This document shows positions 4,349-60,599 of a stretch of DNA of 64,000 bases, in pieces; position 1 is the stretch's first letter; every line of letters starts with the position of its first letter. The stretch is from Candidatus Omnitrophota bacterium (lineage in GTDB: Bacteria > Omnitrophota > Gorgyraeia > 2-01-FULL-45-10): NCBI GenBank assembly GCA_030695905.1, contig JAUYOL010000011.1:7887-71886 (forward strand). The letters run 5' to 3'. Made by a program: the position numbers and the translations under genes. A model generated the notes under the pieces. It searched no databases and had not been told where the DNA came from. It saw only the letters and a program-made list of their open reading frames with translations.

Positions 4349-4449
4349 TATTTTGCAAATTATATGTCGCCTTAATGGTATTACCATATACATATGAGTT
4401 TACACGATAATAATATCAATTCAAGTCGGATTCTCTTACTTTTTTATGC

Positions 4450-4510
4450 CTTAACAAAATGCCCTGCACCAGTCGGCTAACCGTTAAACGATAGCCTCCG
4501 GTACAGGGCA
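4450..4510 (-). terminator. Stem-loop plus U-tract downstream of tRNA-Ala
   Basis: Inverted repeat gccctgcacc (4461-4470) / ggtacagggc (4500-4509), followed on the minus strand by a T-run (plus-strand aacaaaat 4453-4460). There is also an 11-bp inverted repeat catgtaccact (4509-4519) / agtggtacatg (4573-4583) that pairs the tRNA CCA end and trailer with downstream sequence. Confidence 0.4.
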
Positions 4511-4581
4511 TGTACCACTACACATTATGGCCGTGCCATGTACCCGAGCGATGGCTATCTCTAGTTTTCGCGAGTGGTACA

Positions 4582-4655
4582 TGGTGGAGCCTACGGGAGT
4601 CGAACCCGTGACTCAGCGTTGCGAACGCTGCGTAATTCCACTTTACTAAGGCCCC
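4582..4655 (-). tRNA. tRNA-Ala (anticodon CGC)
   Basis: The 74-nt sequence GGGGCCTTAGTAAAGTGGAATTACGCAGCGTTCGCAACGCTGAGTCACGGGTTCGACTCCCGTAGGCTCCACCA folds as a cloverleaf. It has the G3:U70 alanine identity pair, anticodon loop TTCGCAA, T-loop TTCGACT and an encoded CCA. Confidence 0.88.
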
Positions 4656-4667
4656 ATTTTGGGAATA

Positions 4668-4988
4668 CTATACAACAGTCCGGCTTATCCAGTCAAGGTA
4701 ATCCTTGCTGCCGGCAATGATCGGTATCGCTATGATTTCAGGCACCTCATAACTATGCATTTTTTTTACTTCAGTTTCTATTTTTTTAAAATTTGACCGC
4801 CTGGTCTTCATCACGATAAGAACCTCTTTTGCGCTGTCAATCTTGGCCTTCCACCAGAATTTAGATTCTATGCCGGAGACGATATTAGCGCATGCGACGA
4901 GCTTCTTTGCTAATAAACGGTTCACGATCTTACGCGCTTCCTGACGCGACGCGCAGCTTACCGTTATTGAGATAAAACTATTATTCAT
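4668..4988 (-). CDS. cutA: Divalent-cation tolerance protein CutA
   Basis: 106 aa with CutA1 family motifs (CASRQEARKIV..LLAKKLVACANI..., HSYEVPEIIAIPI). Confidence 0.85.
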   Translation of the reverse strand: MNNSFISITVSCASRQEARKIVNRLLAKKLVACANIVSGIESKFWWKAKIDSAKEVLIVMKTRRSNFKKIETEVKKMHSYEVPEIIAIPIIAGSKDYLDWISRTVV

Positions 4989-5049
4989 ATTTTGTAATTT
5001 TATGTTTTGGAATGGGGAATCTGCGGGATTCGATATAAAAAACGTAATA

Positions 5050-5322
5050 TTACGTAAGAGTACCGATCATAGTGCCGACAGCATCCTGGACCAGCGCCCA
5101 GTCCTGCTGATTATGTATGGCGAATTTCTGCTTTCTTTTCCATCCGCCCTCCGGCCTCTTCTGCCACAGGTAGAAACATACCTGTTTTCTTCCGTAGCTT
5201 TCAAGCAGGACTACCGCCGACCACCAGCCGAAACGCTTATTTATCGTCTTATGATCAAGTACCTTTAATGGCGCGACTATCGGTACTTGCTCTTCTTCGC
5301 GTATATTTTTTGGCTCGGGCAT
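5050..5322 (-). CDS. Hypothetical Trp-rich small protein
   Basis: 90-aa ORF co-oriented with its neighbours and with a GGGGG Shine-Dalgarno about 8 nt upstream. No recognisable family. Confidence 0.45.
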   Translation of the reverse strand: MPEPKNIREEEQVPIVAPLKVLDHKTINKRFGWWSAVVLLESYGRKQVCFYLWQKRPEGGWKRKQKFAIHNQQDWALVQDAVGTMIGTLT

Positions 5323-5338
5323 ACCCCTATCCCCCTTT

Positions 5339-5539
5339 CTATCTTCTTAAGGATACCTGATAATCAGAACCTGTCTTCTCTACTACAACATGTCCCTCTC
5401 TGGCGAGCCAGCCTATGCTCATAAGGACTCTGTCTCTTTCGGTGCTGATGCCATTTATTATCTCTTTTAGGGAACTTTTTCCGTGCGTATCAAGGTAGTG
5501 CCATATATCACCTGCCGTAATCCCTATTTCCGTAATCAT
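5339..5539 (-). CDS. Small winged-helix-like protein
   Basis: 66 aa with a wHTH-like pattern (ISTERDRVLMSIGWLAREGHVV). Confidence 0.5.
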   Translation of the reverse strand: MITEIGITAGDIWHYLDTHGKSSLKEIINGISTERDRVLMSIGWLAREGHVVVEKTGSDYQVSLRR

Positions 5540-5554
5540 TTTTGCACCTCCTAA

Positions 5555-5797
5555 TTAGATGGCTTGCTCCCTCTTGTTATAACTGCCGCAAAGAGGGCAG
5601 ATAGAGATATCATCATGTAAGCTGTCTATATACGTATGAAAGCATATGGAACACTTCCAGGCGTTCTCGACATGCTTTTGGTCTGGGGTGACACTCCTAA
5701 GTTTTTTATATCCCAGTATTGCCCATACGGCAAGTATCGCAACTACAGAAAACAGGATATAAATGAATATAAGCGTTCCAATATCTATTCTTATCAT
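5555..5797 (-). CDS. Membrane-anchored zinc-ribbon protein
   Basis: N-terminal TM helix followed by CSICF...CPLCG (CxxC...CxxC). Confidence 0.5.
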   Translation of the reverse strand: MIRIDIGTLIFIYILFSVVAILAVWAILGYKKLRSVTPDQKHVENAWKCSICFHTYIDSLHDDISICPLCGSYNKREQAI

Positions 5798-48253: not shown

Positions 48254-49290
48254 ACTACTCCGGCCTGTTTTATCAGAAAAACCAGAAATACCATACTCAG
48301 GTTATGAGTTATATGCACCGTCATAGAAGATACCAGTGTACCTGTTTTTTCATATAGGAACGCCAACAAGATGCCCAGCGCCATTATGGGCAGAAATCCC
48401 ACTACATGCGAGTGTAGTGTAGCGAATATAGCCGCCGTTATCACCACAGACCATAGTACGCCTGTATATTTTTTTAAGGCATTGTACATGAAGCCCCTGA
48501 AGAATAGCTCTTCTACTATGGGTCCGAGTACAGCCGCGAAAAAACTCGAATACGTAAGGAATGCCACATCTTTTTCTTTTAAAAACATCTCTACCACAGG
48601 CTGTCTTTCGGGCACATATTTTGTTATGCTGATTATTATCGCGGTGACGGCCAATATTACCGCTAAAACCGGCAATAGCGCAATATATCCGACTATACCA
48701 TAAAACACATTTTTAAAAAAATTCTTGACCGAAAGCCCTAACGCCTCTAAATTCTCCTTATATTGAACGATAGAAAGATTTATTATAAAGACTACGGCCA
48801 ATATATCAAGGATCGTCGTATTGATTATCATCCTGATGTTATCCGATTTCAATATGGGAAAAATTCTTGCCCAGAACGCTTCCGCTATGATTAATATATA
48901 GCCGAAAAATAAAAAAAGAATGATAACCTTGCAAAGATCCCATATCGTCCATTTCGCGGCGGGCGGGCTTAAACTGCGTATGTCAAACTTTTTACTCAAT
49001 AACGACGAGAAGATGATAAAATCCAAAGACGTACCGAGCATCAGCATGGCCAGTATCAGCATCGTTGCCATGCCGAACAAAAGCATAAGCGGCCCATTCT
49101 TGCGCAGGGATTCTTCTATATCCGGCCTGCGGGCAAAAAGATCCTGGCTTAACTCCTGCCCGGCCTTAGCCTTTTTAACCTTCTCCGCCTTTTCGGGGCT
49201 TAAGAACATGATAGCGTTAAATAAAAGAACAAACACCAGTATAAGCAGATAGAGGCGCTCTTTATTGACAAAGTTTAATACTTTATTCAT
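48250..49290 (-). CDS. CPBP (CAAX/Abi-type) intramembrane metalloprotease
   Basis: Polytopic membrane protein with EELFFRG and the later FxxxH motifs. Confidence 0.75.
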   Translation of the reverse strand: MNKVLNFVNKERLYLLILVFVLLFNAIMFLSPEKAEKVKKAKAGQELSQDLFARRPDIEESLRKNGPLMLLFGMATMLILAMLMLGTSLDFIIFSSLLSKKFDIRSLSPPAAKWTIWDLCKVIILFLFFGYILIIAEAFWARIFPILKSDNIRMIINTTILDILAVVFIINLSIVQYKENLEALGLSVKNFFKNVFYGIVGYIALLPVLAVILAVTAIIISITKYVPERQPVVEMFLKEKDVAFLTYSSFFAAVLGPIVEELFFRGFMYNALKKYTGVLWSVVITAAIFATLHSHVVGFLPIMALGILLAFLYEKTGTLVSSMTVHITHNLSMVFLVFLIKQAGVV

Positions 49291-50657
49291 CCGGTCACGC
49301 CGTATGTTCTCATTCTAAAAGACGCTCCAAGCGCCTGGGCAGCGGCCTGGCACCCTTTTATATCCACTTCCGGCAGACTAAGGCATGTGATTTCTGTCTC
49401 GATCTTATTTTCCACACAATCTTTGATAAACTTTACCACCGCCTTGTATGTCTTTTCGCCAAATTCAGGTTTACAGATTTTATTGTATAATTTTTCATTA
49501 TCCGTGTTTAAGCTTATCGATACCCTGTCTATCAATCCCGCGAGTTCTTTCGCTATCGGCCTGCCGTTTATAAGGTCGCCGTGGCCGTTTGTGACAAGCC
49601 TTATAACAGCGCCTTTGGCCTTTAAATCATCCGCAACTGCTTTAACAATATCGAGCCTTGCCGTAGGTTCTCCATAGCCACAAAATACTATCTCCTTGTA
49701 CTTTTTCGGATCAGACCCTACCGCTTTCAGCACCTCTGTCAATGTCGGTTCTCTATCCAGTTTAAGATTATGGCCTTTGACAAACGCCGTCTGGGCCCTT
49801 ACGCAGAAATAACAGTTGTTTGTGCATCTGTTGGTAATGTTAAGATACAGGGAATCTCTTATTTCATACGCTATCTTGGAATATTCCTCATCGATCCCTA
49901 AAGAAAATAAGCCGTTGGCATTATGTGTGGTAATTCTCGCTATATCATCCTTTGTAAGTCCGGTTATTTTAGACCATTCATCGACTAAATAAGTAAGATA
50001 AGACGGTTCATTGCGTTTACCCCTCAGGCCTTCGGGTGATAAAAATGGCGCGTCCGTCTCCAATAAAATTTTTTCCGTCGGAACTGTCCTTGCCGACTCT
50101 CTTAGAGCCTGGGCTTTCTTGAAAGTGAGATTGCAGGTGAATGAAATATATAGCCCCATATCAAGACACGCTTTCAAAAGCTCACCGCTTCCGGAGAAAC
50201 AGTGGATGACGCCTCTTATCTTGGGACCGTATTCTTTCAGAATGCTTATGGTATCGTCGTCCGCTTCCCGTGAGTGGATTATAAGAGGCAGCTTTACCTC
50301 CTGCGCGAGCTGAATGAATCTTTTGAATATTACTTTCTGGGTTTCTTTGGATGAAAGGTTTCTGTAATAATCAAGGCCCACCTCTCCAATGGCAACCACC
50401 TTCTTATTTTTAGCCAGAGCCTTTATATCATCCACTACTTTGTCGGTAACTTTACTTGCGTCATGCGGATGTACTCCGACGGAAGCGTAGACAATATCAT
50501 ATTTGTCCGCAAGCTCCACGCACCGGCGGCTTCCCTCTATGGAGCTGCCTACATTAATGATTCGCGCAACTGCGGCCTTAACGGCCCTATCCAAAACGGC
50601 CCCCCGATCCGCGTCAAAATCCTTAAAATCGAGGTGGCAATGTGTGTCTATTAGCAT
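49287..50657 (-). CDS. TatD-family metal-dependent hydrolase fused to a C-terminal radical SAM domain
   Basis: N-terminus LIDTHCHLD...GEVGLDY...HCFSG (TatD). C-terminal half has NITNRCTNNCYFC (CxxxCxxC) plus GYGEP. Confidence 0.75.
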   Translation of the reverse strand: MLIDTHCHLDFKDFDADRGAVLDRAVKAAVARIINVGSSIEGSRRCVELADKYDIVYASVGVHPHDASKVTDKVVDDIKALAKNKKVVAIGEVGLDYYRNLSSKETQKVIFKRFIQLAQEVKLPLIIHSREADDDTISILKEYGPKIRGVIHCFSGSGELLKACLDMGLYISFTCNLTFKKAQALRESARTVPTEKILLETDAPFLSPEGLRGKRNEPSYLTYLVDEWSKITGLTKDDIARITTHNANGLFSLGIDEEYSKIAYEIRDSLYLNITNRCTNNCYFCVRAQTAFVKGHNLKLDREPTLTEVLKAVGSDPKKYKEIVFCGYGEPTARLDIVKAVADDLKAKGAVIRLVTNGHGDLINGRPIAKELAGLIDRVSISLNTDNEKLYNKICKPEFGEKTYKAVVKFIKDCVENKIETEITCLSLPEVDIKGCQAAAQALGASFRMRTYGVTG

Positions 50658-50702: not shown

Positions 50703-50738
50703 GCAAAAACAAGTAGGGCACCTTTAAAGGTGCCCTAC
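50703..50738 (-). terminator. Rho-independent terminator of the giant gene (13-bp stem GTAGGGCACCTTT/AAAGGTGCCCTAC plus T-run)
   Basis: Perfect palindrome 50713-50738, followed on the minus strand by TTGTTTTTG. Confidence 0.75.
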
Positions 50739-50794: not shown

Positions 50795-53700
50795 TTACGC
50801 CGAGATAAGGGTTGCGGCGACTTTCTCGTAATCAGGCTTGTCATAAGCTTGAGCGGGCCTGTAAGCAAGAATACCGCGTATAAGCTTACCTATCTCATTC
50901 TTGGCGATAGCCATGATGTAATCGTCAATCGCTATCTTTTCAGCAAATGTAAAGTGCGATTTTAAGTAGAAACTCAACAACCTGTATACAGACGAACTTA
51001 CGTCTATCTTTTCATCTACTGCGCGCATAAGTAACATTACAACATATGTATCCTGCTGGAATTGCTTCCTGTAGGGGTCTTTAGCACCCTTTGCGGTCAA
51101 TAGCTCATTCCTGTTAGCTATCATAAACCGTATGCCGGCATCTTTAAGTGCCTGATAATGCCTTTCTTCAAACCTTCCATCCGGCAGCTCATTCGGAAGC
51201 AGAACTATTGTTCTGTCCTTTACAGCGTCCGGATTAGCAAGGACACTGTGAATAAATTCATCTGCATCGCGTCCGCTTACACTATCGAGATTAAACCTGT
51301 CGCCATAATTTATCTGAGCTTCTTTTAGCTCGCCGTTTGCAAAGAATTCAGAAGTAACAAGCAGTGTGAAGCGGGTATCGGCTTGAACCGGGATCTGAAC
51401 GCCCGCCTCGTTGGCAAGTTGAATTGCGGCGTTGATCTCAATTTCAGCTGACCTATTCATTTCCGCTACTGTAAGCCTATCGGGTACATGACGCAATGAC
51501 ACAGACTGTGGCCGTTCATCTGCTGTCGTTGTTGCTGACTGCGTAAGCACGGGCTCCACGGCAAGTTTAATAGTTTCCGATCTTTTGCCAAGCACGACAG
51601 GTTGTTTATTAAAAGGAAGGATCGACTCAACAAGCGCTTTTGTATTGCTCGCGCCCAACTTATCGAATATGGTTGCAAATTCTTCATATAATGCTTTGTC
51701 AACAGCGGCACGTACATGAGGTGGTAAATTCCAAAGCATATCCTTGAATGGCGCCGGAAGTTCCTTCGCGGCATCCTTTAATGTCCCTTTTAGCCCCTTA
51801 GGCATAAAATCACCCATTATTTCGGTAATGATCTCTGCGCGGGACTTCCCGGATTGAACGGCAGCAAGTTCTCTATACATGGTGGTTTTCTTTCCATCAT
51901 CTTTAGCGGCCGCTATAGCAAGATCCGCATTCCCAAAGGCCAGATTCCACATAGGCCTGAATTTTTTGGAAAAATTTTCATCCCTTGCCATCAAAGCCTC
52001 AAGCCATTTCGCCATAGCTTCGCCGACTTCCGGCATCATATCGGCAACTATACCGAGCTCTATCTTCTGGTATTCGGTGGCAAGATGCACTTCTCCCACA
52101 TCGCCTTGTTTCATCTTACCAAAATCTTCCTTTTCAAGAGTAGAAGCGCCGTGCTGAACAAACACAGGAATACCGATTCTTTCCCAGTATCTAACATGGC
52201 GCCGATAGATACCAAAGTCTATTTCTCCACCTACGCCATGCATGGTACCTGTCTGAAGGCTTATCTTGCTTGGCCCGACCAGGCCCTCGGCTTCGGCCAT
52301 TGCCAGAATGGTCTTTGCCAGCGTAACCGATCCCAACACAGTGCTTGGGTTATTCTTATGCTTCGGGTTATCTATGTGGCGCTCTTCTATGCCTATTGAG
52401 ACAGGCATTGTCAGTCCTAACTCTTCCTCCAATGCCCTGATATAACGAATAAAACGCATTGTGATCAAAATGCTTGGCCGGTGCATATTCTTGTATAGTC
52501 TTTCTAAATGCTCTTGATGCACTGGAGTTAAAGATTTAATGTCGCCCATCTCTATCTCGTCCACCAGGCGTCGCCAGAGGGACTTTCTGCCATTGTCATC
52601 AAGCCCGTAAAGGAGATAGACGTTCTGATCCAAATATTCACGCACAAAAGCATTCTCAAGTTGTGTAATCTTGTTCAGGGTCCCCTCGTCAACCAATGTG
52701 GAAGGATCAAGATCGATATTGTATACACCCGCCAGCATGGATTTACGAATAAGCTCTTCTATAGCTTTTAATTCTTTTTCTCTCTCATCACCGCCTTTAT
52801 CATATTTCTCCTTGTTTACCTGATAATGGTCGCCCTGGGCAAAGATGAGGCCTTCATAACCCTGCTTAATGGCCGCCGCAATACTGACAGCAGTGAACTC
52901 AGCCATATCCTGCGCCGAGTAGCGCATCTCTGAGCGGGCTAATTCCAATAACAGAACGCCGACATTCTTGTCTTTGGCAGCGCGAAATAACTGCTGGTAT
53001 TGATGGTAAACATCGGTCCTTCCGTTAACAGCGGGGACTGTTATTTTACCCCACTTCCCGTCTTTTTTGGCGGCATAGAAATCATTGATCGAGGCGAGCT
53101 TCAGATTGAAACTGATCGCCGCTTCGCGCAATATTCTTTGAGCGGCAGCTTTCACGTCCGGATTCTCGCTGAAGGCCGATTCAAACGCCAGATAATCAAC
53201 TGTCTGGGAGTGGAATTTAGCCGCATCGAGAATAATCACCGAGTCCGCCGTCACTTTCAGGCTATCTCCAATATTACGCAGGAGTTCAAAAATATCCCTG
53301 GCTCTCGTCGCTGTTGTCACTGCAGGTACCACTGCCGCCATAAACGCGGATTGCGCTGTGGATTTAGTATTTTCATACGCCAACGGGACATCAGAATATT
53401 TTATTGTAGAAGCATCGGAATCCAGCACCAAAAGATTCTCAGGAGCAGGATGATTCCGGAAGAGTTCATATGCCTGCGAATTGGTTATTTTCGTGTTCAC
53501 AAGAGAAACTACTCTAAGACTTGGAAGGCCGTATAATGGTGCCAGATCAGCGACATCGGTATCATTAAGGTCTAACGAAAACACGCTGCGCTCTGGATAA
53601 CTAAGCAAGCGATCCGCGGGAAGCTCATTACCGCGAACAAACTGCTGCAATACTCTAAGCTGTTCGTCAAAACTGGGCGCGGCCGATATGTTTATCTCGG

Positions 53701-56700
53701 GCAGTTTATTGAGCGACTCGCCGAGGATATTCTTCCTTATTCCGGTCATGCCTTTTTCTACGGTCAGTGCCATATGGATCAGATCGATAATCCTCCTGCC
53801 GAATATGAGGTTGCCGTCCTTGTCAGGCCTGGCTCCTTCGACAAGAGCCTTGAATGCCTCTCCATATTTTTCATCCCGGCTGAGTTTTACAAGCAGCGCA
53901 TCATCGGCCTTTATTGCCAAATTTCCCGCCACAACCATATTAAGCATTTTGCGTGTGATATATATGTTGTGCGCTGTTCCAACTAACTCTGTTAACGAAA
54001 CCGGACCCTTTGACGAAGGGAACAGGGCCACCGCACCGGCCGTTCTATTCTTAACATATCTATAGGATTCTGTCGTTAACAAGGTCTTGGGCGAGTCTAA
54101 TGAATCTATTATCTCATCGGCATCAGGCCTGGCAATTACACAGACATTGGGCCTTCTCATATTAAAAGCTGATTCCGATTGAGAATTTATCGCATCTATT
54201 GCTGCATTAATATCATAACCGCTGGGTCTTTTAACCTTTTCGGAAGGCAAAAGGTCTCTAAGGTTTTCTTTCGGCCCAATAACGCCCAGGACGTTCTTTC
54301 CGCAAAGTTCAGCTTCTGTAAAAATACCGCTATCTTTCAAATCCACTTTACCCATTGCTTCCGATACAGGCCTTGCCCTCATGGTCCTTTGTATATCCAC
54401 AACGGTCCTTGAGCCTTTATCGGCGGCAATACACACACCGCCGTCCGAAATGACTCTTTTTCTTTTGGCTTCTTCTGTAATCAACGGAACGGCTGTAGCA
54501 ATAGCCAGTTCTCCCGTGATAATGTCAATACTATCCTTATTAGGCGCCCTTGACCTTCCGCTGTATCCGGTATCTTCCAGAAAAAGATTTTTATCTCTTT
54601 CTAAGCCTAATTCAACAGCAAGCGCCTCAGCCACAAAGTCTGCTATGCCAAGCTCGGCAAGCAGAGGGTTACCATTGACATCTGTTTTTACATTGGCAAA
54701 CTTTGCCGCCAAAAATTTGTTTCTTTTGAGGATTTTTTGTAGTAGTTGATCCTTTGCCGATACTCTGAACCCCTCCGACACAAATACGGCACTAGCGCCA
54801 TACTCATTCATTCTCGATCTAACCGCTTCGGCTATATCATATAAAGAAACGATAACGCTACCATTAGGACTTACTGACCATTCTGGAACCGCCGCAACGC
54901 TGATAGGCGACTCTAAAGCCCCTGAAACGGTCAAATAGCCCATATCGCGGCCCATCATCTGGAACACGACACATTTCCAGCTGCCGGGCTCGGGTGATGC
55001 GCGCCGTGAAAATTCGTTTGCATTCTGCCCTGCGCTGTCTGCGCCCATCGGGTATACCATCGTATCACCGTCTATCGTCTTGGGAAGGACTAGCACCATC
55101 ATGTCATCTACCTTTGATTCTTTAAATTTCTTAGCTATCTTTGCTGCCTCGCCCATATGGTCATTCCCGCCGACAAAAACCACTGTCTTGCAATAACCCT
55201 GTAAATTCGCCATTGCCTGAAGCGTTAACTCTTCGTTCAGCTTGACCCTCGACGTGCCTTGCGCGGCGCCGGGCTTGTTAAGCAGCTCATCCGCCATTTT
55301 TTGATCCACCCATACACGGTTTTCCGCAAATTCCCCGGATGACTTCACCAGCGTATCCAGGCCGAACCTTTGGATTTCAAGCGTCATGCCAAATCGGGCA
55401 AGAGCCTTTGCCAGTAACGCGAAATAATTATTTACACCCGGCGCTTCTCCGCCGCTTATCATTATTATCACGCGTTTTTCCGGAGGAACTTCACTCGGCT
55501 TGAGCCACGTCTTTACTCTTGTCATCGCAGCTACAGGCTGGTCAACCGTAGGCACAATCACAGGCTTTAATATGTCTTCGATATTATCCTGCTTGCTCCG
55601 AACGGCCTTGACATGCTCTTTAATGAATTGCAGTGAAGCTGCATAATCTTTTTTAAACGCTTCGACCCCGTCTTCCTGCAACTTTGTAGTAATTGCATTT
55701 ATGTCTATATCACATTTGGACAAGGTATACATTACCTCTTGTGCCTGAACCGCTGTCATGTCATTTCTCGGCTCGGCTTCTACGCTGGTAGCCATTATCG
55801 AGGCATGCAATGTATCTTTCGGCATAGTATTAACTGTATTTTGCAAAGGGAGATTTGAAACATACATAAGCGGTGAAAATCTGGCACCATCAGCATAAGC
55901 TTCGTTTGATTTTATCTCCGTAGAAGCCCACAGAAGTCTTTGGGGCGCGGCGCCCATATTCAGAAGCTGTTCCCATAGTCGATGTCGATATAAAAATACG
56001 TTATTAGAAACATCGGATGCAAGCACCGTGTTAGCTATAGCGGCTTTTCCTATAAGGCTCTCCAAAATTGTTATGTTAGCCGCTGTCTCTTTAGGGTTAT
56101 CCGTTCTTGCTTTTTCCTTTGCGATTGCCTTCCTTATCTGCTCATCAGCCGCATCCGGCTTACAGTTCACCCTGCTCACGAAGAAACTCGCAACGGACTG
56201 TATGTCATAGATAGGTTTACGATCGGTAACTCTCCGCTCCAAGCCTCTCATATACGCCCTTGCGACATCTTCATAATTGGAAACCCCGAAAAGAAGAGTT
56301 ACATTGACATTGATTCCATTGTAGGTAAGTTCCTCTACTGCCTTTACGCCCTCGGGAGTAGCGGGAACCTTCACCATGACGTTTGGCATTCCAATCGCGT
56401 TAACTAATCGCATAGCCTCATTAACAGTATTCTGTACATCATACGCATATTTCGGGTTTACTTCTATCGATATATATCCGTCAAGATGCTTTGTCTTATT
56501 AAAGACGGGAAACCATTCCACAGCCATCTGTTTCATATACAATATACATACATAATCGTATATCTGTTCGGGCGTCCAGCCTTCGGCTATACCATGCTGT
56601 ATTTCTTTGTCGAACATACCTGCTTTTATGGCATTGTTAATTATCGTAAGATTTGTGGTTTGACCGGTGACGCCTTTTTTCTTAAAAAACCTGATCTCTT

Positions 56701-59700
56701 CAGGCGTAAACGCGCCATCCGCCCATACGCTCTGTCCTTTTTTACGTAGCAAGGAAATACCTTTACCGGCAAGGAGCCTGGCTGTCTTTACGATACCATC
56801 CTTATCAAAACCGTGTTTTTTATACAGCTCCGCGGGCGTTCCCGATTCGCCGTATTTGTCTATACCAAGGTTTCTGACAAATTGCGGTTTTGCGTTCCGA
56901 CGGGCGAGGATATTATCTATCTTATCTCCGAGTAGTCCCGGCAATGCGTCTATCACGCTTATAATATTTCTGCCACGCTCAATGAGTTTTTCAAAATCCC
57001 TCTTGTTAGCTTCATCAGCCGTTATGGATTTGAGCTGTGTTACATTCACAACCTCTACTGAAAGGCCGTATTTTTCTGAAAGATCCTTGGCCGCATTTAT
57101 CGCTTCAGCTGTTACTACACCGGATGAAACTATTACAATGTCACGGCTTTGGCTCTTTTTTCTATTTTTCCCGGACTCGGTATCAAATATCTTATAGAAA
57201 CCGCGCCTTGCGCCTTCCTGCCAACCTTCGGGTTTATTTTGTATAACCGGAGTATCAAGCCTCGCCGGCCTTATGTAATGTATGCCGCCTTTCTTCTTTG
57301 CAACGTCATATATACCTCTAAACAATACCCTCTGTTCTTCTGCGTCAGCACCTTCATAAGTTTGAACCCCCGGAAGCGCACCAAGAACACCAAGCGAATG
57401 CGCATCCTGGTGAGTTCTGCCATCCGGCCCGGTCGCTAAACCACCGTGCGTTCCAACGATTATTATCGGAAGGTTTGCATTTAATATGGCGTTAAGCTGG
57501 TCGACCATCCTCGTAGTAAATATGCTAAATGTGCCAATAACCGGAATCTTGCCGCACGCAGCAAGGCCTGCGGCAAATGAAACCATATGTGCCTCGCGTA
57601 TACCAACCGGTATATATCTGCCTAAAAGATTATCAGCTGAAAATGTCCCGAATAACTTCGCAAAACCGTCAAATTTATTAGAACCCATCAAGTCTGCCGA
57701 CATTGCAACCACATCAATATTATCCGCGCCGATAAGTGTGAGTTCGTGGCCTGTGGCAGTGCGAGTAGCAACATTTTTGCCCTCAGGATAACCTTTCTCT
57801 AATTCCTGTATAGCTTTTTGAACTGTTGCGCTATTTGTTATCTGACGAAGCGCCTCTCTTCTCGCCCCTACACGCGCTTTATTTTCTTTTTCTATACGCG
57901 CCTTCGTGTCGGCACCTAATGATATTTTCCTGATTAGATCTTCTACAAAAGCCTTTACAGCTTCCCTATGATTTTCGGGAGTGTACCTGCCATTGCTTAA
58001 AACGGCTAAATCCGCGTCTATAATAGCGAGCGCTTCTTTAACTTCGGCTTCTTTAGGCGCTTCACCGTGTTTTGCCATTCCCGGCAGGCCCGCACCTTTC
58101 GTAGTTTTCATTATAACTATAGCCGGCTTACCGTTACCAAGACTTTTCTTTGCTTCCTGAGTAGCTCTCATTACATCTTCTATGTCTTCGCCATTTGCCC
58201 TGACTACATTCCATCCTCTTGCTTCCCAGAGCTTAATTTGGCCTTCGTAGTCAACATCAACATCAGTAACTTTGTTATCTATCTGATATCCATTCCAGTC
58301 AAGAAACGCTACTATCTTAAGCCCCTTTGCCGCCGCTTCTCTATACGTTTCATCTTGCTTCTGTTTTAAAATAGCTCCTGCATGCCTTCCGGCCTCATCT
58401 ACCTGGCCTTCTTCGGTTTCACCATCACCAATTATGCAGTATGTTATATAGTCCTTGTCGTCCATTACTGCTGCAGTCGCCATAGCTACCGCGGCGGAAA
58501 AAGCTACTCCTAAAGGGCCTCCTGAAAACTCAACACCGATCGTCTTCGCCATGTCCGGATGGCCCTGTAAGTCTGATCCGAGCTTTCTCAATGTTTCAAG
58601 GAATTCTTCCACATCCTCGGTCTTCAATTTGCCCTGTTTCTTAAGATCCGCTATACGTTTTGCAAAATACTGTGCGCGCGCCAATGCCGCATATAGGCCG
58701 GGCGCAGCATGGCCTTTTGAAAGGACAAACCTGTCCCTATATTCCCAGTTCGGATCACTTGGATCGTATCTCATGATCCTTTCACCATTAGCATTCGTTC
58801 CAAAATATAGCGCAACGACCGCTTTTAACATAGAAAGCGAACCACCCGGATGGCCTGAACCGGCCTTGTAGATCATACTTACTACATCGCGCTCGAGTAT
58901 CCTTGTTAAAAATTTCAGATCCTGTATTAATCCGGGGCTATTTAGGCGAACACCTGCCGCGAATAAGCACTCGGATATCGCGGCTTCATCCAATAAATTT
59001 AAATCCTTTAATTTCGCCAACACGCCTTCTTCGGTAATGTCATTACGCACACGGTCAACGAGTATTTTCAACACTTTTGTTTGCTCTTCACGCGTTAATT
59101 TGGCAACAGCCGGTATTTCAATTAGCCTTTTCCATACATCTTTTGCCCTGTCATCACTTATCCCGATATCCGGCATATTTTCGTTCATTACTGCGGCTGC
59201 CGCAACAGGAGCTTCGAAATCAGTATCCGTCCTGTACTTTCTGCTGTCGGGACCAACAGAAATATCACCGTACGGCGCCATTGCTTGTGTAATTCGATAG
59301 GCAAGGGTAGCAAATTCATTGTAGGTGAGCTCGCCTACTATGCGCTTTCCGCTCTCCATGTGAGTAAAATTCAAAGTTTTCTTCCCTTGCCAACTATCCC
59401 CACCCTGGCCATCCCTCCTCAGCGTCCTCCACTGCCTATATTTATCCCAATCGCCTTCAAATGCCTCCTTTACGACAGCCAGATGGAAGCTTCTTTCTAA
59501 GTGCTCATGCGCCAATAATTGATCTTTTACGGTTGTAAATCCCCCCATGCCATATAACCACACACTTGTCTCTGTTGTACCCGTTTTGTCTTTATGCCAG
59601 GGGGCAACGGCATATATCCACCCACTTTCAACACCAAAGTGCGCGGCTTGTGAGGACAGCTGTCTTAGAAAATCGCTATACCCGTAGTGCAATTCGGGTC

Positions 59701-60445
59701 CGACATTTGCTCTACCCAGCAAGCCTGAAAAAAGTTCTTGTTCAGATAAACCGGTTACTTCAATAAGCTTCTCAAAGATAGCCAAAAAATTCCCGGCGGA
59801 TTTTTTATTATCTGCAACAAACCAATTAATCTTATTAGACTTGTCCACTACGAGGAATTTCTCGAATGCCTTTGGGTTTTTTCCGACCTCGTAAAATAAC
59901 GCGTCAAGCATCGCGTTAAGAACCCTGTGATCCGCGCAATCCATAGGGCCGGCATCTCTAACAGCTGCGGCTGTCGGAACTTCCCGCGATTTCGCCGAAG
60001 GCGTATTGTCTTTCGGGTATACGCTCAAGGTTTGTTTGGCAGGATCGTATTCTATAACATACCTTACATTATTTATGACCGCTTTCAGCGTTATAACACC
60101 ATTGAGCCCTGCTTCGGCTTCATGGCGGAATATTCTACCGTTACGTATATTGTCAATTGCTCTAACAACTTCGGGGGATACGCCCTTTAGCTCTTTCAAT
60201 GTTTGAGGAGTTATCGGCTGCTTCGCCTTTCTCATCGCCGCAAATAATTCCATGATAAGTATCGATATGCCGCGCGTGCCCTGGATGTCTTTGCCCAACA
60301 TATCGTCACTTTTTATGAGCGTAGCGAGTGTGTCAGAATTCCTCGCGCCTAATAACTCCTGCGCGAACCCTGTATCAAAAAGAAATGTATTGCAAATGAA
60401 TGCTATCAACACCACCAAAGAAGCTACACGATTTACTCTACTCAT
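50795..60445 (-). CDS. Giant secreted multi-enzyme fusion protein (~3216 aa). Signal peptide, N-terminal unknown region, split-type transketolase (TPP, Pyr and C domains), long-form transaldolase, phosphofructokinase (PKTIDGD type), unknown/LRR-like region, class II fructose/tagatose-bisphosphate aldolase, C-terminal unknown ~350 aa
   Basis: Single uninterrupted ORF. Start is ATG 60445 (SD AGGAGG 7 nt upstream); the track uses GTG 60451. Tkt motifs: GSGHPGGSLSM..ALYF, DRFVLSKGHAAPGLYA, LQGHPD, GDGETEEG, GIREAHM, GPDGRTHQ. Tal motifs: VWADGAF, GQTTNLTI, MVKVPATPEG..NVNVTLLFG, LWASTE..VNTMP. Pfk motifs: ISGGEAPGVN, VGGNDHMG, LPKTIDGD, MGR. Fba motifs: AQGDHYQ, GTMHGV, FVQHGAS. Approximate nt spans: Tkt 59060-56850, Tal 56780-55530, Pfk 55480-54300, Fba 53100-51870. 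Confidence 0.9.
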   Translation of the reverse strand: MSRVNRVASLVVLIAFICNTFLFDTGFAQELLGARNSDTLATLIKSDDMLGKDIQGTRGISILIMELFAAMRKAKQPITPQTLKELKGVSPEVVRAIDNIRNGRIFRHEAEAGLNGVITLKAVINNVRYVIEYDPAKQTLSVYPKDNTPSAKSREVPTAAAVRDAGPMDCADHRVLNAMLDALFYEVGKNPKAFEKFLVVDKSNKINWFVADNKKSAGNFLAIFEKLIEVTGLSEQELFSGLLGRANVGPELHYGYSDFLRQLSSQAAHFGVESGWIYAVAPWHKDKTGTTETSVWLYGMGGFTTVKDQLLAHEHLERSFHLAVVKEAFEGDWDKYRQWRTLRRDGQGGDSWQGKKTLNFTHMESGKRIVGELTYNEFATLAYRITQAMAPYGDISVGPDSRKYRTDTDFEAPVAAAAVMNENMPDIGISDDRAKDVWKRLIEIPAVAKLTREEQTKVLKILVDRVRNDITEEGVLAKLKDLNLLDEAAISECLFAAGVRLNSPGLIQDLKFLTRILERDVVSMIYKAGSGHPGGSLSMLKAVVALYFGTNANGERIMRYDPSDPNWEYRDRFVLSKGHAAPGLYAALARAQYFAKRIADLKKQGKLKTEDVEEFLETLRKLGSDLQGHPDMAKTIGVEFSGGPLGVAFSAAVAMATAAVMDDKDYITYCIIGDGETEEGQVDEAGRHAGAILKQKQDETYREAAAKGLKIVAFLDWNGYQIDNKVTDVDVDYEGQIKLWEARGWNVVRANGEDIEDVMRATQEAKKSLGNGKPAIVIMKTTKGAGLPGMAKHGEAPKEAEVKEALAIIDADLAVLSNGRYTPENHREAVKAFVEDLIRKISLGADTKARIEKENKARVGARREALRQITNSATVQKAIQELEKGYPEGKNVATRTATGHELTLIGADNIDVVAMSADLMGSNKFDGFAKLFGTFSADNLLGRYIPVGIREAHMVSFAAGLAACGKIPVIGTFSIFTTRMVDQLNAILNANLPIIIVGTHGGLATGPDGRTHQDAHSLGVLGALPGVQTYEGADAEEQRVLFRGIYDVAKKKGGIHYIRPARLDTPVIQNKPEGWQEGARRGFYKIFDTESGKNRKKSQSRDIVIVSSGVVTAEAINAAKDLSEKYGLSVEVVNVTQLKSITADEANKRDFEKLIERGRNIISVIDALPGLLGDKIDNILARRNAKPQFVRNLGIDKYGESGTPAELYKKHGFDKDGIVKTARLLAGKGISLLRKKGQSVWADGAFTPEEIRFFKKKGVTGQTTNLTIINNAIKAGMFDKEIQHGIAEGWTPEQIYDYVCILYMKQMAVEWFPVFNKTKHLDGYISIEVNPKYAYDVQNTVNEAMRLVNAIGMPNVMVKVPATPEGVKAVEELTYNGINVNVTLLFGVSNYEDVARAYMRGLERRVTDRKPIYDIQSVASFFVSRVNCKPDAADEQIRKAIAKEKARTDNPKETAANITILESLIGKAAIANTVLASDVSNNVFLYRHRLWEQLLNMGAAPQRLLWASTEIKSNEAYADGARFSPLMYVSNLPLQNTVNTMPKDTLHASIMATSVEAEPRNDMTAVQAQEVMYTLSKCDIDINAITTKLQEDGVEAFKKDYAASLQFIKEHVKAVRSKQDNIEDILKPVIVPTVDQPVAAMTRVKTWLKPSEVPPEKRVIIMISGGEAPGVNNYFALLAKALARFGMTLEIQRFGLDTLVKSSGEFAENRVWVDQKMADELLNKPGAAQGTSRVKLNEELTLQAMANLQGYCKTVVFVGGNDHMGEAAKIAKKFKESKVDDMMVLVLPKTIDGDTMVYPMGADSAGQNANEFSRRASPEPGSWKCVVFQMMGRDMGYLTVSGALESPISVAAVPEWSVSPNGSVIVSLYDIAEAVRSRMNEYGASAVFVSEGFRVSAKDQLLQKILKRNKFLAAKFANVKTDVNGNPLLAELGIADFVAEALAVELGLERDKNLFLEDTGYSGRSRAPNKDSIDIITGELAIATAVPLITEEAKRKRVISDGGVCIAADKGSRTVVDIQRTMRARPVSEAMGKVDLKDSGIFTEAELCGKNVLGVIGPKENLRDLLPSEKVKRPSGYDINAAIDAINSQSESAFNMRRPNVCVIARPDADEIIDSLDSPKTLLTTESYRYVKNRTAGAVALFPSSKGPVSLTELVGTAHNIYITRKMLNMVVAGNLAIKADDALLVKLSRDEKYGEAFKALVEGARPDKDGNLIFGRRIIDLIHMALTVEKGMTGIRKNILGESLNKLPEINISAAPSFDEQLRVLQQFVRGNELPADRLLSYPERSVFSLDLNDTDVADLAPLYGLPSLRVVSLVNTKITNSQAYELFRNHPAPENLLVLDSDASTIKYSDVPLAYENTKSTAQSAFMAAVVPAVTTATRARDIFELLRNIGDSLKVTADSVIILDAAKFHSQTVDYLAFESAFSENPDVKAAAQRILREAAISFNLKLASINDFYAAKKDGKWGKITVPAVNGRTDVYHQYQQLFRAAKDKNVGVLLLELARSEMRYSAQDMAEFTAVSIAAAIKQGYEGLIFAQGDHYQVNKEKYDKGGDEREKELKAIEELIRKSMLAGVYNIDLDPSTLVDEGTLNKITQLENAFVREYLDQNVYLLYGLDDNGRKSLWRRLVDEIEMGDIKSLTPVHQEHLERLYKNMHRPSILITMRFIRYIRALEEELGLTMPVSIGIEERHIDNPKHKNNPSTVLGSVTLAKTILAMAEAEGLVGPSKISLQTGTMHGVGGEIDFGIYRRHVRYWERIGIPVFVQHGASTLEKEDFGKMKQGDVGEVHLATEYQKIELGIVADMMPEVGEAMAKWLEALMARDENFSKKFRPMWNLAFGNADLAIAAAKDDGKKTTMYRELAAVQSGKSRAEIITEIMGDFMPKGLKGTLKDAAKELPAPFKDMLWNLPPHVRAAVDKALYEEFATIFDKLGASNTKALVESILPFNKQPVVLGKRSETIKLAVEPVLTQSATTTADERPQSVSLRHVPDRLTVAEMNRSAEIEINAAIQLANEAGVQIPVQADTRFTLLVTSEFFANGELKEAQINYGDRFNLDSVSGRDADEFIHSVLANPDAVKDRTIVLLPNELPDGRFEERHYQALKDAGIRFMIANRNELLTAKGAKDPYRKQFQQDTYVVMLLMRAVDEKIDVSSSVYRLLSFYLKSHFTFAEKIAIDDYIMAIAKNEIGKLIRGILAYRPAQAYDKPDYEKVAATLISA

Positions 60446-60500
60446 TGCCACTCCTCCTGTTTATGTTTCATGACGAACTTTTTAATCTTTTTTACTTTCC

Positions 60501-60530
60501 AAAAAAAACGCCTGGCAAAACTTTGCCAAG
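60501..60530 (-). promoter_or_regulatory. Terminator-like hairpin plus U8 inside the ~120-nt 5' leader of the giant gene (possible attenuator)
   Basis: Minus strand CUUGGCAAAGUUUUGCCAGG CG UUUUUUUU, located between the predicted TSS and the SD. Confidence 0.35.
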
Positions 60531-60571
60531 CATTTAAAATTTGTTCCGGACTTTTTTAAAAACTTGTTATT

Positions 60572-60599
60572 AGTTTATCACGCGAAAAATGTTTGTCAA
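60572..60599 (-). promoter_or_regulatory. Sigma70-like promoter TTGACA-N16-TAAACT (TGn extended -10) for the giant gene
   Basis: Minus strand ccTTGACAaacatttttcgcgTGaTAAACTaat, about 150 nt upstream of the ATG. Confidence 0.45.

What the first reader, a model, noticed from the sequence alone, without database searches (positions are those of the whole stretch)
50795..60445. One 9.65-kb gene encodes a signal-peptide-bearing polyenzyme fusing transketolase, transaldolase, phosphofructokinase and class II FBP aldolase
Four complete, apparently catalytically intact enzyme modules lie in one 3,2xx-aa polypeptide, in the order Tkt, Tal, Pfk, Fba. The transketolase keeps its TPP and His residues (GHPG, KGH, QGHPD, GDGxxxEG, GIREAHM, DGRTHQ). 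The transaldolase is the long form with the Schiff-base Lys in MVKVP. The phosphofructokinase has GGEAPG, PKTIDGD and MGR. The aldolase keeps its zinc His ligands (GDH, MHG, QHGAS). Together these four activities interconvert C3-C7 sugar phosphates, covering the non-oxidative pentose-phosphate exchange and the PFK/FBA sedoheptulose-bisphosphate bypass. About 1,300 residues fall outside these modules (N-terminal ~460 aa, an inter-domain LRR-like segment, and the C-terminal ~350 aa). The protein starts with a canonical Sec signal peptide (MSRVNRVASLVVLIAFICNTFLFDTGFA-QE), which is hard to square with cytoplasmic sugar-phosphate chemistry. It could be an exported or host-delivered metabolic effector, a membrane-tethered metabolon, or a scaffold built from enzyme folds. 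To my knowledge a Tkt-Tal-Pfk-Fba fusion of this kind has not been described.
Basis: partly seen in the sequence, partly recalled or inferred. Interest (0 to 1): 0.95.

Follow-up and report, generated by a model that had tools for sequence, protein, structure and literature searches.

The report
Leader-bearing four-enzyme sugar-phosphate fusion, Omnitrophota
A real 3,216-residue Omnitrophota protein fuses transketolase, transaldolase, a pyrophosphate-type phosphofructokinase and a divergent class II aldolase between a secretion-type leader and a conserved tail, and it belongs to a large, apparently undescribed family that carries swappable central-metabolism enzymes, so where these enzymes work is an open question.

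Summary
The ORF is real: window 50795-60445, minus strand, 3,216 aa, with an AGGAGG ribosome-binding site and terminator-like hairpins on both sides. A second assembly pipeline gives 100% identical DNA.

Module status:
- Transketolase, transaldolase and PFK pass Pfam cut-offs and keep their catalytic residues.
- The PFK has the pyrophosphate-type signature (GGxD, PKTIDxD).
- The fourth module misses the Pfam class II aldolase cut-off. Profile alignment, fold search and stand-alone relatives place it in the class II aldolase superfamily with the zinc histidines intact. Its exact reaction is unproven.

The larger result is that the 'non-enzyme' ends are a conserved frame. This frame is a Sec-type leader, an N-terminal domain, and a ~215-aa C-terminal domain ending in -LISA. 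It is shared by many Candidatus Omnitrophota proteins whose middles hold other enzymes (PGK, GAPDH, TIM, FBPase, PGM and others). A related genome has a different 4,059-aa enzyme set at the same locus. The Tkt-Tal and PFK-aldolase pairs also occur as cassettes in other members.

Glycolytic domains in leader/TM-bearing Omnitrophota giant proteins have already been published, so this is a new variant of a known kind. The topology signals say the protein is exported, but the enzyme chemistry fits the cytoplasm. That conflict is unresolved.

The parts
50795..60445 (-). Complete coding sequence, 3,216 aa plus stop
   Evidence: Identical protein P0001 in NCBI/Logan. 100% identical DNA over 19,864 nt in the Logan assembly of SRR13727529.
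60453..60458 (-). Shine-Dalgarno AGGAGG, 7 nt before the ATG
   Evidence: Upstream sequence printed.
60506..60535 (-). Terminator-like hairpin (13-bp stem plus T run) between metG and the gene. A promoter-like TTGACA/TAAACT lies at 60599-60572.
   Evidence: The stretch is also conserved in the syntenic locus L003.
60362..60445 (-). N-terminal leader, residues 1-28: n-region with 2 Arg, a 17-residue hydrophobic core, then GFA|QE
   Evidence: The same tripartite leader is found in about 35 family members, followed by a net negative flank.
59186..60361 (-). Conserved N-terminal frame domain. The core is residues 29-149, with a partly conserved extension to about 420.
   Evidence: blastp 1-149 matches P0028 (42%) and P0002 (37%). 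Family alignment. No Pfam, NCBIfam or PDB-sequence match.
58994..59176 (-). Small helical 'pre-module' element, residues 424-484, in front of Tkt. The same element sits in front of the GPI module of P0002.
   Evidence: phmmer E 3.7e-8.
56771..58924 (-). Transketolase module, residues 508-1225
   Evidence: Pfam and NCBIfam. PDB hits to E 2e-46. All mapped E. coli TktA catalytic and TPP residues are conserved.
55592..56755 (-). Transaldolase module (long form), residues 1231-1618
   Evidence: Pfam 181 bits. PDB 3r5e E 3e-38 with MVKVPAT aligned to MIKIPAT. Residue map.
53696..55510 (-). Phosphofructokinase unit of about 600 aa, residues 1646-2250: a PFK core with PPi-type motifs plus a family-specific extension
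   Evidence: Pfam 79 bits. Best PDB hit is the B. burgdorferi PPi-PFK 1kzh. Motifs GGNDH, PKTIDGD and MGR. 48% identical over 605 aa to P0005 and 44% to P0007.
53324..53671 (-). Leucine-rich-repeat spacer, residues 2259-2374
   Evidence: LRR_4 E 7e-4, below cut-off. Homologous to the LRR region of P0002, which has 4 LRR_4 stretches.
51545..53323 (-). Divergent long class II aldolase-superfamily module, residues 2375-2967. It has a ~140-aa helical insertion and a helical C-terminal extension.
50798..51445 (-). Conserved C-terminal frame domain, residues 3001-3216: a flavodoxin-like alpha/beta part plus helices, ending ...YEKVAATLISA
50713..50738 (-). Terminator-like GC-rich hairpin 57 nt after the stop codon

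Best explanation
What it is (high confidence). It is a genuine single gene of a Candidatus Omnitrophota bacterium. It belongs to a large modular protein family with a fixed frame and variable cassettes of central-carbon enzymes. The frame is a Sec-type leader, an N-terminal domain and a ~215-aa C-terminal domain ending in -LISA. This member combines a Tkt-Tal cassette with a PFK-aldolase cassette.

How it most likely works (inferred).
- The leader sends the polypeptide through the Sec pathway. Everything after residue ~28 ends up on the far side of the cytoplasmic membrane, either tethered by an uncleaved leader or released after cleavage before the conserved Gln.
- There the four modules form a reversible sugar-phosphate 'scrambler' that needs no nucleotides. 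Transketolase uses bound TPP/Mg. Transaldolase needs no cofactor. The PPi-type PFK needs only PPi/Pi. The class II aldolase uses Zn.
- Together they interconvert C3-C7 sugar phosphates by both the transaldolase route and the sedoheptulose-bisphosphate route.
- I propose that they convert sugar phosphates from prey or host into forms the cell can take up or use.
- The frame domains would serve anchoring, assembly or regulation.

Shown: gene integrity, module identities, conserved catalytic residues, the family and its cassettes, and the leader features. Inferred: export, catalytic activity, substrates and physiological role.
For: Gene and modules.

PPi-type PFK: best PDB hit is 1kzh, with shared GGxD and PKTIDxD. 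The signature is described in PMC12203962. The PFK/aldolase sedoheptulose-bisphosphate route is documented in PMC7029132.

Aldolase module:
- hhalign to E. coli GatY/FbaA gives E 2e-4 and aligns VPAxN, DH, IDxS, GTxHG, xHGAS and xxxxATE.
- Foldseek hits UxaE, T4Ease, GatZ and class II FBAs at E 6e-8 to 1e-3.
- DH, HG, QHGAST and HLAT are invariant in 23 relatives.
- The stand-alone relative P0062 passes PF01116 with 50.6 bits.
- Elsewhere the module is fused with TIM, GAPDH, PFK and FBPases.

Family:
- 829 library hits at E<=1e-3, and 57 of the best 150 carry the C-terminal domain at their very end.
- 33 members share the leader, N-domain and C-domain, with varied enzyme cargo.
- A 399-aa member has the frame only.
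- All named members are Ca. Omnitrophota.

Cassettes: P0028 is frame + Tkt-Tal, matching in one HSP over giant residues 509-1614. P0007 has PFK directly followed by the aldolase module.

Same locus, different cargo: L003.

Export signals:
- The n-region carries +2 to +4 charge, the hydrophobic core is 15-17 aa, and the next 30 residues are net negative in about 35 members.
- There is no other hydrophobic segment.
- An LRR spacer is present.
- Published topology predictions for Omnitrophota long proteins agree.
Against: - Sugar phosphates and PPi are cytoplasmic metabolites, and no source outside the cytoplasm has been shown.
- Other members of the same frame family carry domains that need ATP, NAD or cytoplasmic partners: PGK, GAPDH, a ROK kinase, 2-hydroxyacid dehydrogenases, a sigma-54-type AAA+ domain, a receiver domain and GlnD.
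- P0003 lies directly after a leaderless (cytoplasmic) GH94 phosphorylase in a sugar-utilisation locus.
- No stand-alone tkt, tal, pfk or fba is present in the 64-kb window. If the fusion is the genome's only copy, it would have to serve cytoplasmic metabolism.
- No signal-peptide predictor could be run.
- The small-x-small cleavage motif is not conserved in all members.
- The PFK has Asn in place of the first Asp of GGDD, and the aldolase has His/Glu where FBAs have Asn/Lys in KxN. Activities may therefore differ from the textbook ones.
Confidence: 0.45

Rival explanations
1. Cytoplasmic or cytoplasm-facing metabolon. The N-terminal helix only tethers the protein to the inner face of the membrane, or is not inserted at all. 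The four enzymes then act as the cell's own non-oxidative pentose-phosphate / upper-glycolysis block, with substrate proximity as the benefit.
For: - The cargo across the family is typical cytoplasmic chemistry: PGK, GAPDH, ROK, a sigma-54 AAA+ domain, REC and GlnD.
- P0003 sits next to a leaderless GH94 phosphorylase.
- There are no stand-alone copies in the window.
- Published reconstructions count Embden-Meyerhof glycolysis as present in Omnitrophota from KO hits (PMC10066038). In the 2026 preprint pfkA is found only at relaxed thresholds, which fits divergent fused PFKs like this one.
Against: - A single N-terminal helix with a positively charged N-tail and an acidic C-flank predicts N-in/C-out, meaning the bulk is exported.
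- No second hydrophobic segment exists that could bring the chain back.
- LRR segments in bacteria are mostly extracytoplasmic (my own knowledge).
Confidence: 0.35
2. Polyprotein precursor. The chain is made as one piece and then cut at module boundaries into separate enzymes. This could apply with either localisation.
For: - P0002, the counterpart at the same locus, has the motif GEKSYPAG six times, and the copies fall between cassettes.
- Other members have their own repeated boundary motifs: KEGRGLP in P0069, SASSPV in P0029 and ARDGGK in P0033.
- West-Roberts et al. propose post-translational cleavage for Omnitrophota giant proteins.
Against: - The protein in this window has no repeated boundary motif. 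Only weak PVAA-like similarities were seen.
- No protease domain was found in it.
- The neighbouring Rce1-like protease is part of a conserved housekeeping gene order and is not specifically linked to it.
Confidence: 0.15
3. Non-catalytic scaffold or adhesin built from enzyme folds, or an assembly chimera of separate genes.
For: - The modules score below NCBIfam equivalog cut-offs.
- The PFK and aldolase carry unusual substitutions.
- The Tal-PFK junction (residues ~1614-1645) was not seen in any other protein.
Against: - Catalytic and cofactor residues are conserved in all modules, and the variant motifs are conserved among relatives. GGNDH occurs in three proteins, and the zinc ligands are invariant in 23.
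- Two assembly pipelines give 100% identical DNA.
- Composition is uniform and the frame is uninterrupted.
- The flanks match the syntenic locus, whose gene has the same N-terminus.
- The Tkt-Tal and PFK-aldolase junctions recur in independent MAGs.
Confidence: 0.05

Closest known systems
Omnitrophota long 'multi-enzyme metabolic cluster' proteins / Archaeovorins (West-Roberts et al. 2023, 10.1101/2023.11.21.568195; 2026 preprint 10.64898/2026.06.07.730766)
   Same: It comes from the same phylum. Many distinct central-carbon enzyme domains sit in one polypeptide: TPI, GPI, FBPase, PGM, FBP aldolase and hexokinase are reported there. A signal peptide and/or TM helices predict that the enzymes lie outside the cytoplasm, and those authors raise the same localisation puzzle.
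   Different: - Those studies cover proteins of >=10,000 or >=30,000 aa with many TM helices, whereas this one has 3,216 aa and a single leader.
- Transketolase and transaldolase are not mentioned in either paper; pfkA appears only as a KO hit in the 2026 preprint's metabolic survey.
- In what I read of them, the conserved N- and C-terminal frame, the cassette pairs and the exchange at a fixed locus are not described.
- No protease or dockerin domains are present here.
Sedoheptulose-1,7-bisphosphate route of the pentose-phosphate pathway (PPi-PFK + FBP aldolase; Koendjbiharie et al., PMC7029132)
   Same: A PPi-type PFK and a class II aldolase are combined with transketolase, which is the enzyme set of that route.
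   Different: In that route the enzymes are separate and cytoplasmic, and transaldolase is absent. Here transaldolase is present as well, and all the enzymes are fused behind a leader. Activity on sedoheptulose phosphates has not been tested.
Class II aldolase superfamily: GatY/FbaA aldolases and the UxaE / tagatose-4-epimerase / GatZ branch
   Same: TIM-barrel fold. The motifs VPAxN, DH, HG and HGxS(G/T) are present with three zinc histidines.
   Different: - The module is about 590 aa, with a 140-aa helical insertion and a long C-terminal extension.
- It scores below the PF01116 gathering score.
- The KxN motif is replaced by ExH.
- The nearest solved folds are C4-epimerases, not aldolases.
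Known bifunctional fusions of central-carbon enzymes (e.g. transaldolase/phosphoglucose isomerase NF007080, PGK/TIM NF010569)
   Same: Neighbouring pathway enzymes are fused in one chain.
   Different: Those fusions have two domains, are cytoplasmic, and have no leader or frame domains. Here four enzymes are fused within a shared frame.

Membership tests
Transketolase (PF00456/PF02779/PF02780) | Three domains above Pfam gathering scores | tested here: met
   120.5, 91.4 and 42.2 bits against cut-offs of 22, 27 and 25.9.
Transketolase (PF00456/PF02779/PF02780) | TPP/metal motif GDG...N, cofactor-activating Glu, catalytic and substrate His/Arg/Asp (E. coli H26, H66, H100, D155, N185, H261, R358, S385, E411, H461, D469, H473) | tested here: met
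   All are conserved in the MAFFT map to E. coli TktA. R520 aligns one column off, next to an Arg.
Transketolase (PF00456/PF02779/PF02780) | NCBIfam equivalog cut-off | tested here: not met
   338.5 bits against a cut-off of 488 for NF004559. The module is divergent and has insertions.
Transaldolase (PF00923, long form) | Pfam gathering score plus the Schiff-base Lys and the D/N/E/N/T/S/F/R active-site set | tested here: met
   181 bits. K1359 lies in MVKVP, and N1265, E1328, N1381, T1383, S1420, F1422, R1425 and D1243 are present. The NCBIfam subfamily cut-off is not reached (288 against 367).
Phosphofructokinase, PPi-dependent type (PF00365) | Pfam gathering score; catalytic TIDxD aspartates; MGR | tested here: met
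   79 bits against a cut-off of 30.9. PKTIDGD and MMGR are present.
Phosphofructokinase, PPi-dependent type (PF00365) | Donor signature GGDD and PKTIDXD (PMC12203962) | tested here: inconclusive
   The discriminating Asp (4th position) and the Lys are present. The motif reads GGND, however, so the first Asp is Asn. This variant is conserved in P0005 and P0007.
Class II fructose-bisphosphate aldolase (PF01116) | Pfam gathering score | tested here: not met
   16.2 to 21.2 bits against 25.5, covering only profile positions 167-241. phmmer against the PDB finds no aldolase.
Class II fructose-bisphosphate aldolase (PF01116) | Three zinc histidines, the Asp before the first His, and the phosphate-binding HGxS loop | tested here: met
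   hhalign to GatY aligns GDH to DH83, GTMHG to H180 and VQHGAS to H208. These positions are invariant in 23 relatives.
Class II fructose-bisphosphate aldolase (PF01116) | TIM-barrel fold closest to class II aldolases | tested here: inconclusive
   The AF2 model has pLDDT 66. Class II FBAs are hit (7ncc, 3n9s, 3ohi, 1gyn, 3ekz), but the top hits are UxaE, T4Ease and GatZ.
Class II fructose-bisphosphate aldolase (PF01116) | FBP (or SBP) cleavage activity | not testable with these tools
   Only context supports it. The module is fused elsewhere to PFK, TIM, GAPDH, FBPase and GlpX.
Omnitrophota giant multi-enzyme proteins (Archaeovorins; >=10-30 kaa catalogues) | Length >=10,000 aa (2026 catalogue) or >=30,000 aa (Archaeovorins) | tested here: not met
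   3,216 aa.
Omnitrophota giant multi-enzyme proteins (Archaeovorins; >=10-30 kaa catalogues) | Omnitrophota origin; several distinct metabolic Pfams in one chain; signal peptide and/or TM | tested here: met
Leader + N-domain + C-domain 'frame' family (unnamed; defined here) | N-terminal leader and N-domain core homologous to other members | tested here: met
   Residues 1-149 are 42% identical to P0028, 37% to P0002 and 34% to P0034.
Leader + N-domain + C-domain 'frame' family (unnamed; defined here) | ~215-aa C-terminal domain at the extreme C-terminus ending in -L(I/M)(S/A)A | tested here: met
   Residues 3001-3216 are 40-75% identical to the C-termini of 57 of the best 150 library hits.

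The most novel reading that the evidence does not exclude
Omnitrophota run part of their central sugar-phosphate metabolism outside the cytoplasm, either in the periplasm or cell coat or inside attached prey. A phylum-wide family of Sec-exported carrier proteins would do this. The conserved N- and C-terminal domains would act as sorting or assembly modules, and the enzyme cassettes (including ATP- and NAD-dependent ones) would be shuffled between paralogues and even at a fixed chromosomal locus.
Probability: 0.3. Interest if true: 0.9.

Novelty: new variant of a known kind. Interest (0 to 1): 0.62.

Why it matters
- If the leader is functional, transketolase, transaldolase, PFK, aldolase and, in paralogues, PGK, GAPDH, TIM and sugar kinases are placed beyond the cytoplasmic membrane. 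Periplasmic or prey-directed sugar-phosphate metabolism of that kind would be unprecedented for bacteria. It would also bear on how these ultra-small predators or symbionts feed.
- If the leader is not functional, published metabolic reconstructions of Omnitrophota still need a note. Some of their glycolysis and pentose-phosphate calls may rest on membrane-targeted fusion proteins.
- Either way, the family gives a compact system that can be expressed. At 3 kaa or less, down to a 399-aa frame-only member, it is far more tractable than the 30-150 kaa giants. It can be used to test the localisation puzzle raised in the giant-gene papers.
- It is also a natural example of enzyme-cassette shuffling within a fixed protein frame.

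Tried and rejected
- **N-terminus homology search.** The search for homologous proteins with residues 1-505 returned nothing, not even the parent protein, so the negative result is uninformative.
- **Whole-protein searches.** The word-index search gave only 2 hits. The genome-contig scan gave only two weak Atribacterota PFK matches, so there is no close relative among the GTDB representatives and the rest of this genome could not be inspected.
- **Aldolase segment against PDB.** phmmer gave only chance-level hits: encapsulin-type VLP E 0.08 and transthyretin E 0.3. I rejected these.
- **Leader alternatives.** Lipoprotein and Tat readings were rejected. The Cys in FICN has no lipobox context and is not conserved, and there is no consistent twin-arginine motif.
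- **Repeated processing motif in this protein.** None was found, unlike in P0002.
- **Sigma-54 module of P0065.** I searched for Walker A and GAFTGA motifs and found none, so that AAA+ module may be degenerate.
- **Stand-alone copies.** There is no other tkt, tal, pfk or fba in the window.
- **Rfam.** Only a tRNA was found in the window.
- **P0005.** Its lack of a leader is explained by truncation at a contig edge.
Full report

Yes. The ORF listing gives a single ORF at 50795..60451 on the minus strand. Its translation has no internal stop. An AGGAGG lies 7 nt before the ATG at 60445, so the product has 3,216 aa.

G+C content is even across the gene, 0.45-0.47. Terminator-like hairpins lie on both sides, at 60535-60506 and 50738-50713, so the gene looks like its own transcription unit.

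The exact protein is in NCBI as 'MAG: transaldolase family protein [Candidatus Omnitrophota bacterium]' on an 89-kb contig. A Logan assembly of run SRR13727529 carries DNA that is 100% identical over 19,864 nt.

**2. The enzyme modules**

Pfam finds Transketolase_N, Transket_pyr, Transketolase_C, TAL_FSA and PFK, in that order and all above gathering score. NCBIfam agrees, although every module scores below the equivalog cut-offs, so they are divergent.

I fetched E. coli TktA, TalB, PfkA, FbaA, GatY and GatZ as numbered references and mapped the catalytic residues.

- **Transketolase.** H26, H66, H100, D155, N185, H261, R358, S385, E411, H461, D469 and H473 are all conserved.
- **Transaldolase.** The Schiff-base Lys (K1359 in MVKVP) is present, together with the N, E, N, T, S, F and R set. 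This agrees with the alignment to the C. glutamicum enzyme 3r5e.
- **PFK.**
  - GGEAPG, PKTIDGD, MGR and the SEG Glu are present.
  - The best solved relative is the B. burgdorferi PPi-dependent PFK.
  - The protein has Asp at the fourth position of GGxD and Lys in PKTIDxD. Both are the published signatures of PPi-dependent enzymes (PMC12203962).
  - One oddity is Asn in place of the first Asp (GGND). P0005 and P0007 share it, so it looks like a selected variant rather than decay.
  - The PFK unit is about 600 aa long. It includes an extension also found in P0005 and P0007 and matched by P0052, P0056 and P0079.

**3. The fourth module**

Taken alone, this module fails the membership test for PF01116. 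It scores 16-21 bits against a cut-off of 25.5, and phmmer against the PDB finds no aldolase. Four further lines of evidence place it in the class II aldolase superfamily.

- **Profile alignment.** hhalign of a four-sequence profile against E. coli GatY/FbaA gives E 2e-4. It aligns all the hallmark motifs: VPAVNGR with VPAFNIH, GDH with DH83, NIDLDPS with MIDASH, GTMHG with GTAHG (H180), VQHGAS with VLHGAS (H208), and EVHLATE with KINVATE.
- **Fold search.** An AF2 model of moderate quality (pLDDT 66) has an alternating beta/alpha pattern. Foldseek hits tagatose 4-epimerase, UxaE and GatZ first (E 6e-8 to 4e-6), then class II FBP aldolases 7ncc, 3n9s, 3ohi, 1gyn and 3ekz.
- **Relatives.** The exhaustive library search finds stand-alone relatives of 450-475 aa. 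P0062 ('aldolase [Planctomycetota]') passes PF01116 with 50.6 bits. DH, HG, QHGAST and HLAT are invariant across 23 relatives.
- **Fusion partners.** In other proteins the same module is fused to PFK, TIM, GAPDH, class 1 FBPase and GlpX.

My conclusion is that this is a zinc-dependent class II aldolase-type module, most likely a ketose-bisphosphate aldolase. An epimerase activity cannot be excluded.

**4. What the 'non-enzyme' parts are**

This is where the finding changes character.

The phmmer search of residues 2017-3216 against 1.84 billion representatives returned 829 hits at E<=1e-3. Of the best 150, 57 match only residues ~3001-3216, and always at their own extreme C-terminus.

I aligned 33 such proteins, which range from 606 to 3,784 aa. 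They share two conserved ends:

- a C-terminal domain of about 215 aa that ends ...Y(D/E)K(V/I)AATLISA;
- an N-terminal leader and domain: M(K/R)..N(K/R)(I/V)(I/V)S..VLV.FLFNT...DLAFGQ...DKLAAPS..DD..GI.HKD.GRIK.AL...

Their middles differ. The domains found include transaldolase, transketolase, PGK, 2-hydroxyacid dehydrogenase, aldose epimerase, NAD-epimerase, PGAM-type phosphatase, HAD, PGM, NagB-like, ROK kinase, PIG-L, class II aldolase and a sigma-54-type AAA+ domain.

A 399-aa member (L023) has the frame and nothing else. All members that carry a source name are Candidatus Omnitrophota.

**5. Cassettes and locus**

- P0028 (1,436 aa; its 90%-identity cluster has six members, including records from Candidatus Omnitrophota MAGs) is frame + Tkt + Tal. 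It aligns to residues 509-1614 of this protein in a single HSP.
- P0007 has the PFK unit directly followed by the aldolase module.
- The protein in this window therefore equals a Tkt-Tal cassette, a PFK-aldolase cassette and an LRR spacer, set inside the frame. Only the Tal-PFK junction is unique to it.
- In a related genome (L003) the same gene order, metG > X > TatD-radical-SAM > Rce1-like > DUF362, holds a 4,059-aa protein, P0002. Its leader is nearly identical, but its cargo is glutamate dehydrogenase, a NagB-like module, PFK, the aldolase-like module, LRR and GPI.
- The flanking genes are 60-70% identical between the two loci. The frame and the locus are stable while the cargo is exchanged.

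**6. Localisation: the unresolved core**

*Evidence for export.*

- In about 35 members the leader has a +2 to +4 n-region and a hydrophobic core of 15-17 residues.
- It often has small-x-small before a conserved Gln, followed by an acidic flank.
- No other hydrophobic segment exists in the family. In this protein the only other 19-mer above the threshold lies inside the transketolase fold.
- By the positive-inside rule, the whole enzyme part should be translocated.
- The LRR spacer and the published topology predictions for Omnitrophota long proteins point the same way.
- The four modules of this particular protein need no diffusible nucleotide. They use bound TPP, no cofactor, PPi/Pi and Zn. 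That makes function outside the cytoplasm conceivable.

*Evidence against export.*

- The substrates are cytoplasmic metabolites.
- Paralogues carry PGK, GAPDH, a ROK kinase, an AAA+ domain and receiver domains.
- P0003 follows a leaderless GH94 phosphorylase.
- No stand-alone copies are in the window.

I put export at about 0.45 and a cytoplasmic or cytoplasm-facing metabolon at about 0.35. Polyprotein processing is possible under either reading. It is suggested by the GEKSYPAG repeats of P0002 and similar motifs elsewhere, but this protein has no such motif.

**7. Comparison with what is known**

West-Roberts et al. (10.1101/2023.11.21.568195) report TPI, GPI, FBPase, PGM and FBP-aldolase domains in Omnitrophota giant proteins. 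They predict them to be extracellular and flag the same doubt.

A 2026 preprint (10.64898/2026.06.07.730766) defines 'multi-enzyme metabolic clusters' among proteins of >=10 kaa, 94% of which have a signal peptide or TM helices.

The general phenomenon is therefore known. The following were not found in those texts or in my literature searches:

- transketolase or transaldolase inside such proteins (PFK appears only as a pfkA KO hit in the 2026 preprint's metabolic survey);
- the conserved frame;
- the cassette pairs;
- the exchange of cargo at a fixed locus;
- the small frame-only members.

The PFK + aldolase + transketolase set matches the sedoheptulose-bisphosphate route (PMC7029132), but here transaldolase is present as well.

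**8. Verdict**

It is a new variant of a known kind. Interest is moderate to high, because it offers a small and testable entry point to the question of where Omnitrophota place their fused central-metabolism enzymes.

Noticed in passing
L003 541-12720 (protein P0002); also P0069, P0029, P0033, P0018: P0002 carries the motif GEKSYPAG six times (residues 1121, 1271, 1598, 1916, 2776, 2964), and the copies fall between enzyme cassettes. Other family members have their own repeated boundary motifs (KEGRGLP x3, SASSPV x4-6, ARDGGK x3). These may be processing sites or scars of cassette insertion. The protein in this window has none.
   Followed up: partly
C-termini of window 50798-50830 (-), P0002, P0003, P0004, P0005: At least three different C-terminal domain types all end in a small non-polar pair: ...TLISA, ...FAIAA, ...FAQAA, ...VYIAA, ...FDVAA. 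These resemble the tails recognised by ClpXP (ssrA-like) or tail-specific proteases. I have no explanation.
   Followed up: no
L023 1131-2327 (+): A complete 399-aa gene encodes only the leader, the N-domain core and the C-terminal domain, with no enzyme cargo and no Pfam or NCBIfam match. It may be the ancestral 'empty frame' and would be a convenient experimental handle.
   Followed up: partly
window 49287-50657 (-); L003 12844-14226: The gene directly downstream is a single 456-aa fusion of a TatD-type hydrolase and a radical SAM domain. It is followed by an Rce1-like (CPBP) intramembrane protease and a DUF362/4Fe-4S protein. This order is conserved in the related locus L003.
   Followed up: no
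window 60476-60599 (-): Between metG and the gene, a promoter-like site with a TG extension (60599-60572) is followed by a 13-bp-stem hairpin with a T run (60535-60506). The gene's ribosome-binding site comes only after that. It could be the metG terminator or a leader/attenuator. The stretch is conserved in L003.
   Followed up: no
window 1-64000: Almost every long ORF is on the minus strand and GC skew is negative throughout, so the window lies on one replichore with strong co-orientation. tRNA-Ala(CGC) at 4582-4655 (-) is the only RNA family hit. No ORF of >=150 aa lies in 1-5762.
   Followed up: partly
L004 1-2666 (+) and 7449-9827 (+): Next to P0003 (GlpX FBPase + aldolase-like module in the frame) lies another protein of >2,356 aa with a PGM/PMM domain and a different C-terminus (...EQALRSL). 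The locus also holds a leaderless GH94 phosphorylase, a sugar-binding lipoprotein and a glycoamylase. Long enzyme fusions therefore sit inside ordinary sugar-utilisation loci.
   Followed up: no
window 58994-59176 (-) and L003 9484-9666: A ~60-aa helical element (residues 424-484) precedes the transketolase module here and the GPI module in P0002 (34% identity, phmmer E 3.7e-8). It may be a reusable linker or docking element of the cassettes.
   Followed up: partly
P0065 residues 2331-2582: A frame-family member with a typical leader contains a sigma-54-interaction-type AAA+ domain (51.7 bits) with its lid domain. It lacks recognisable Walker A and GAFTGA motifs. This is hard to reconcile with an extracytoplasmic location if the domain is functional.
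   Followed up: partly
tool behaviour: The word-index protein search with residues 1-505 did not return even the parent protein that contains them. Negative results from that tool for low-complexity or rare segments should not be read as absence.
   Followed up: no
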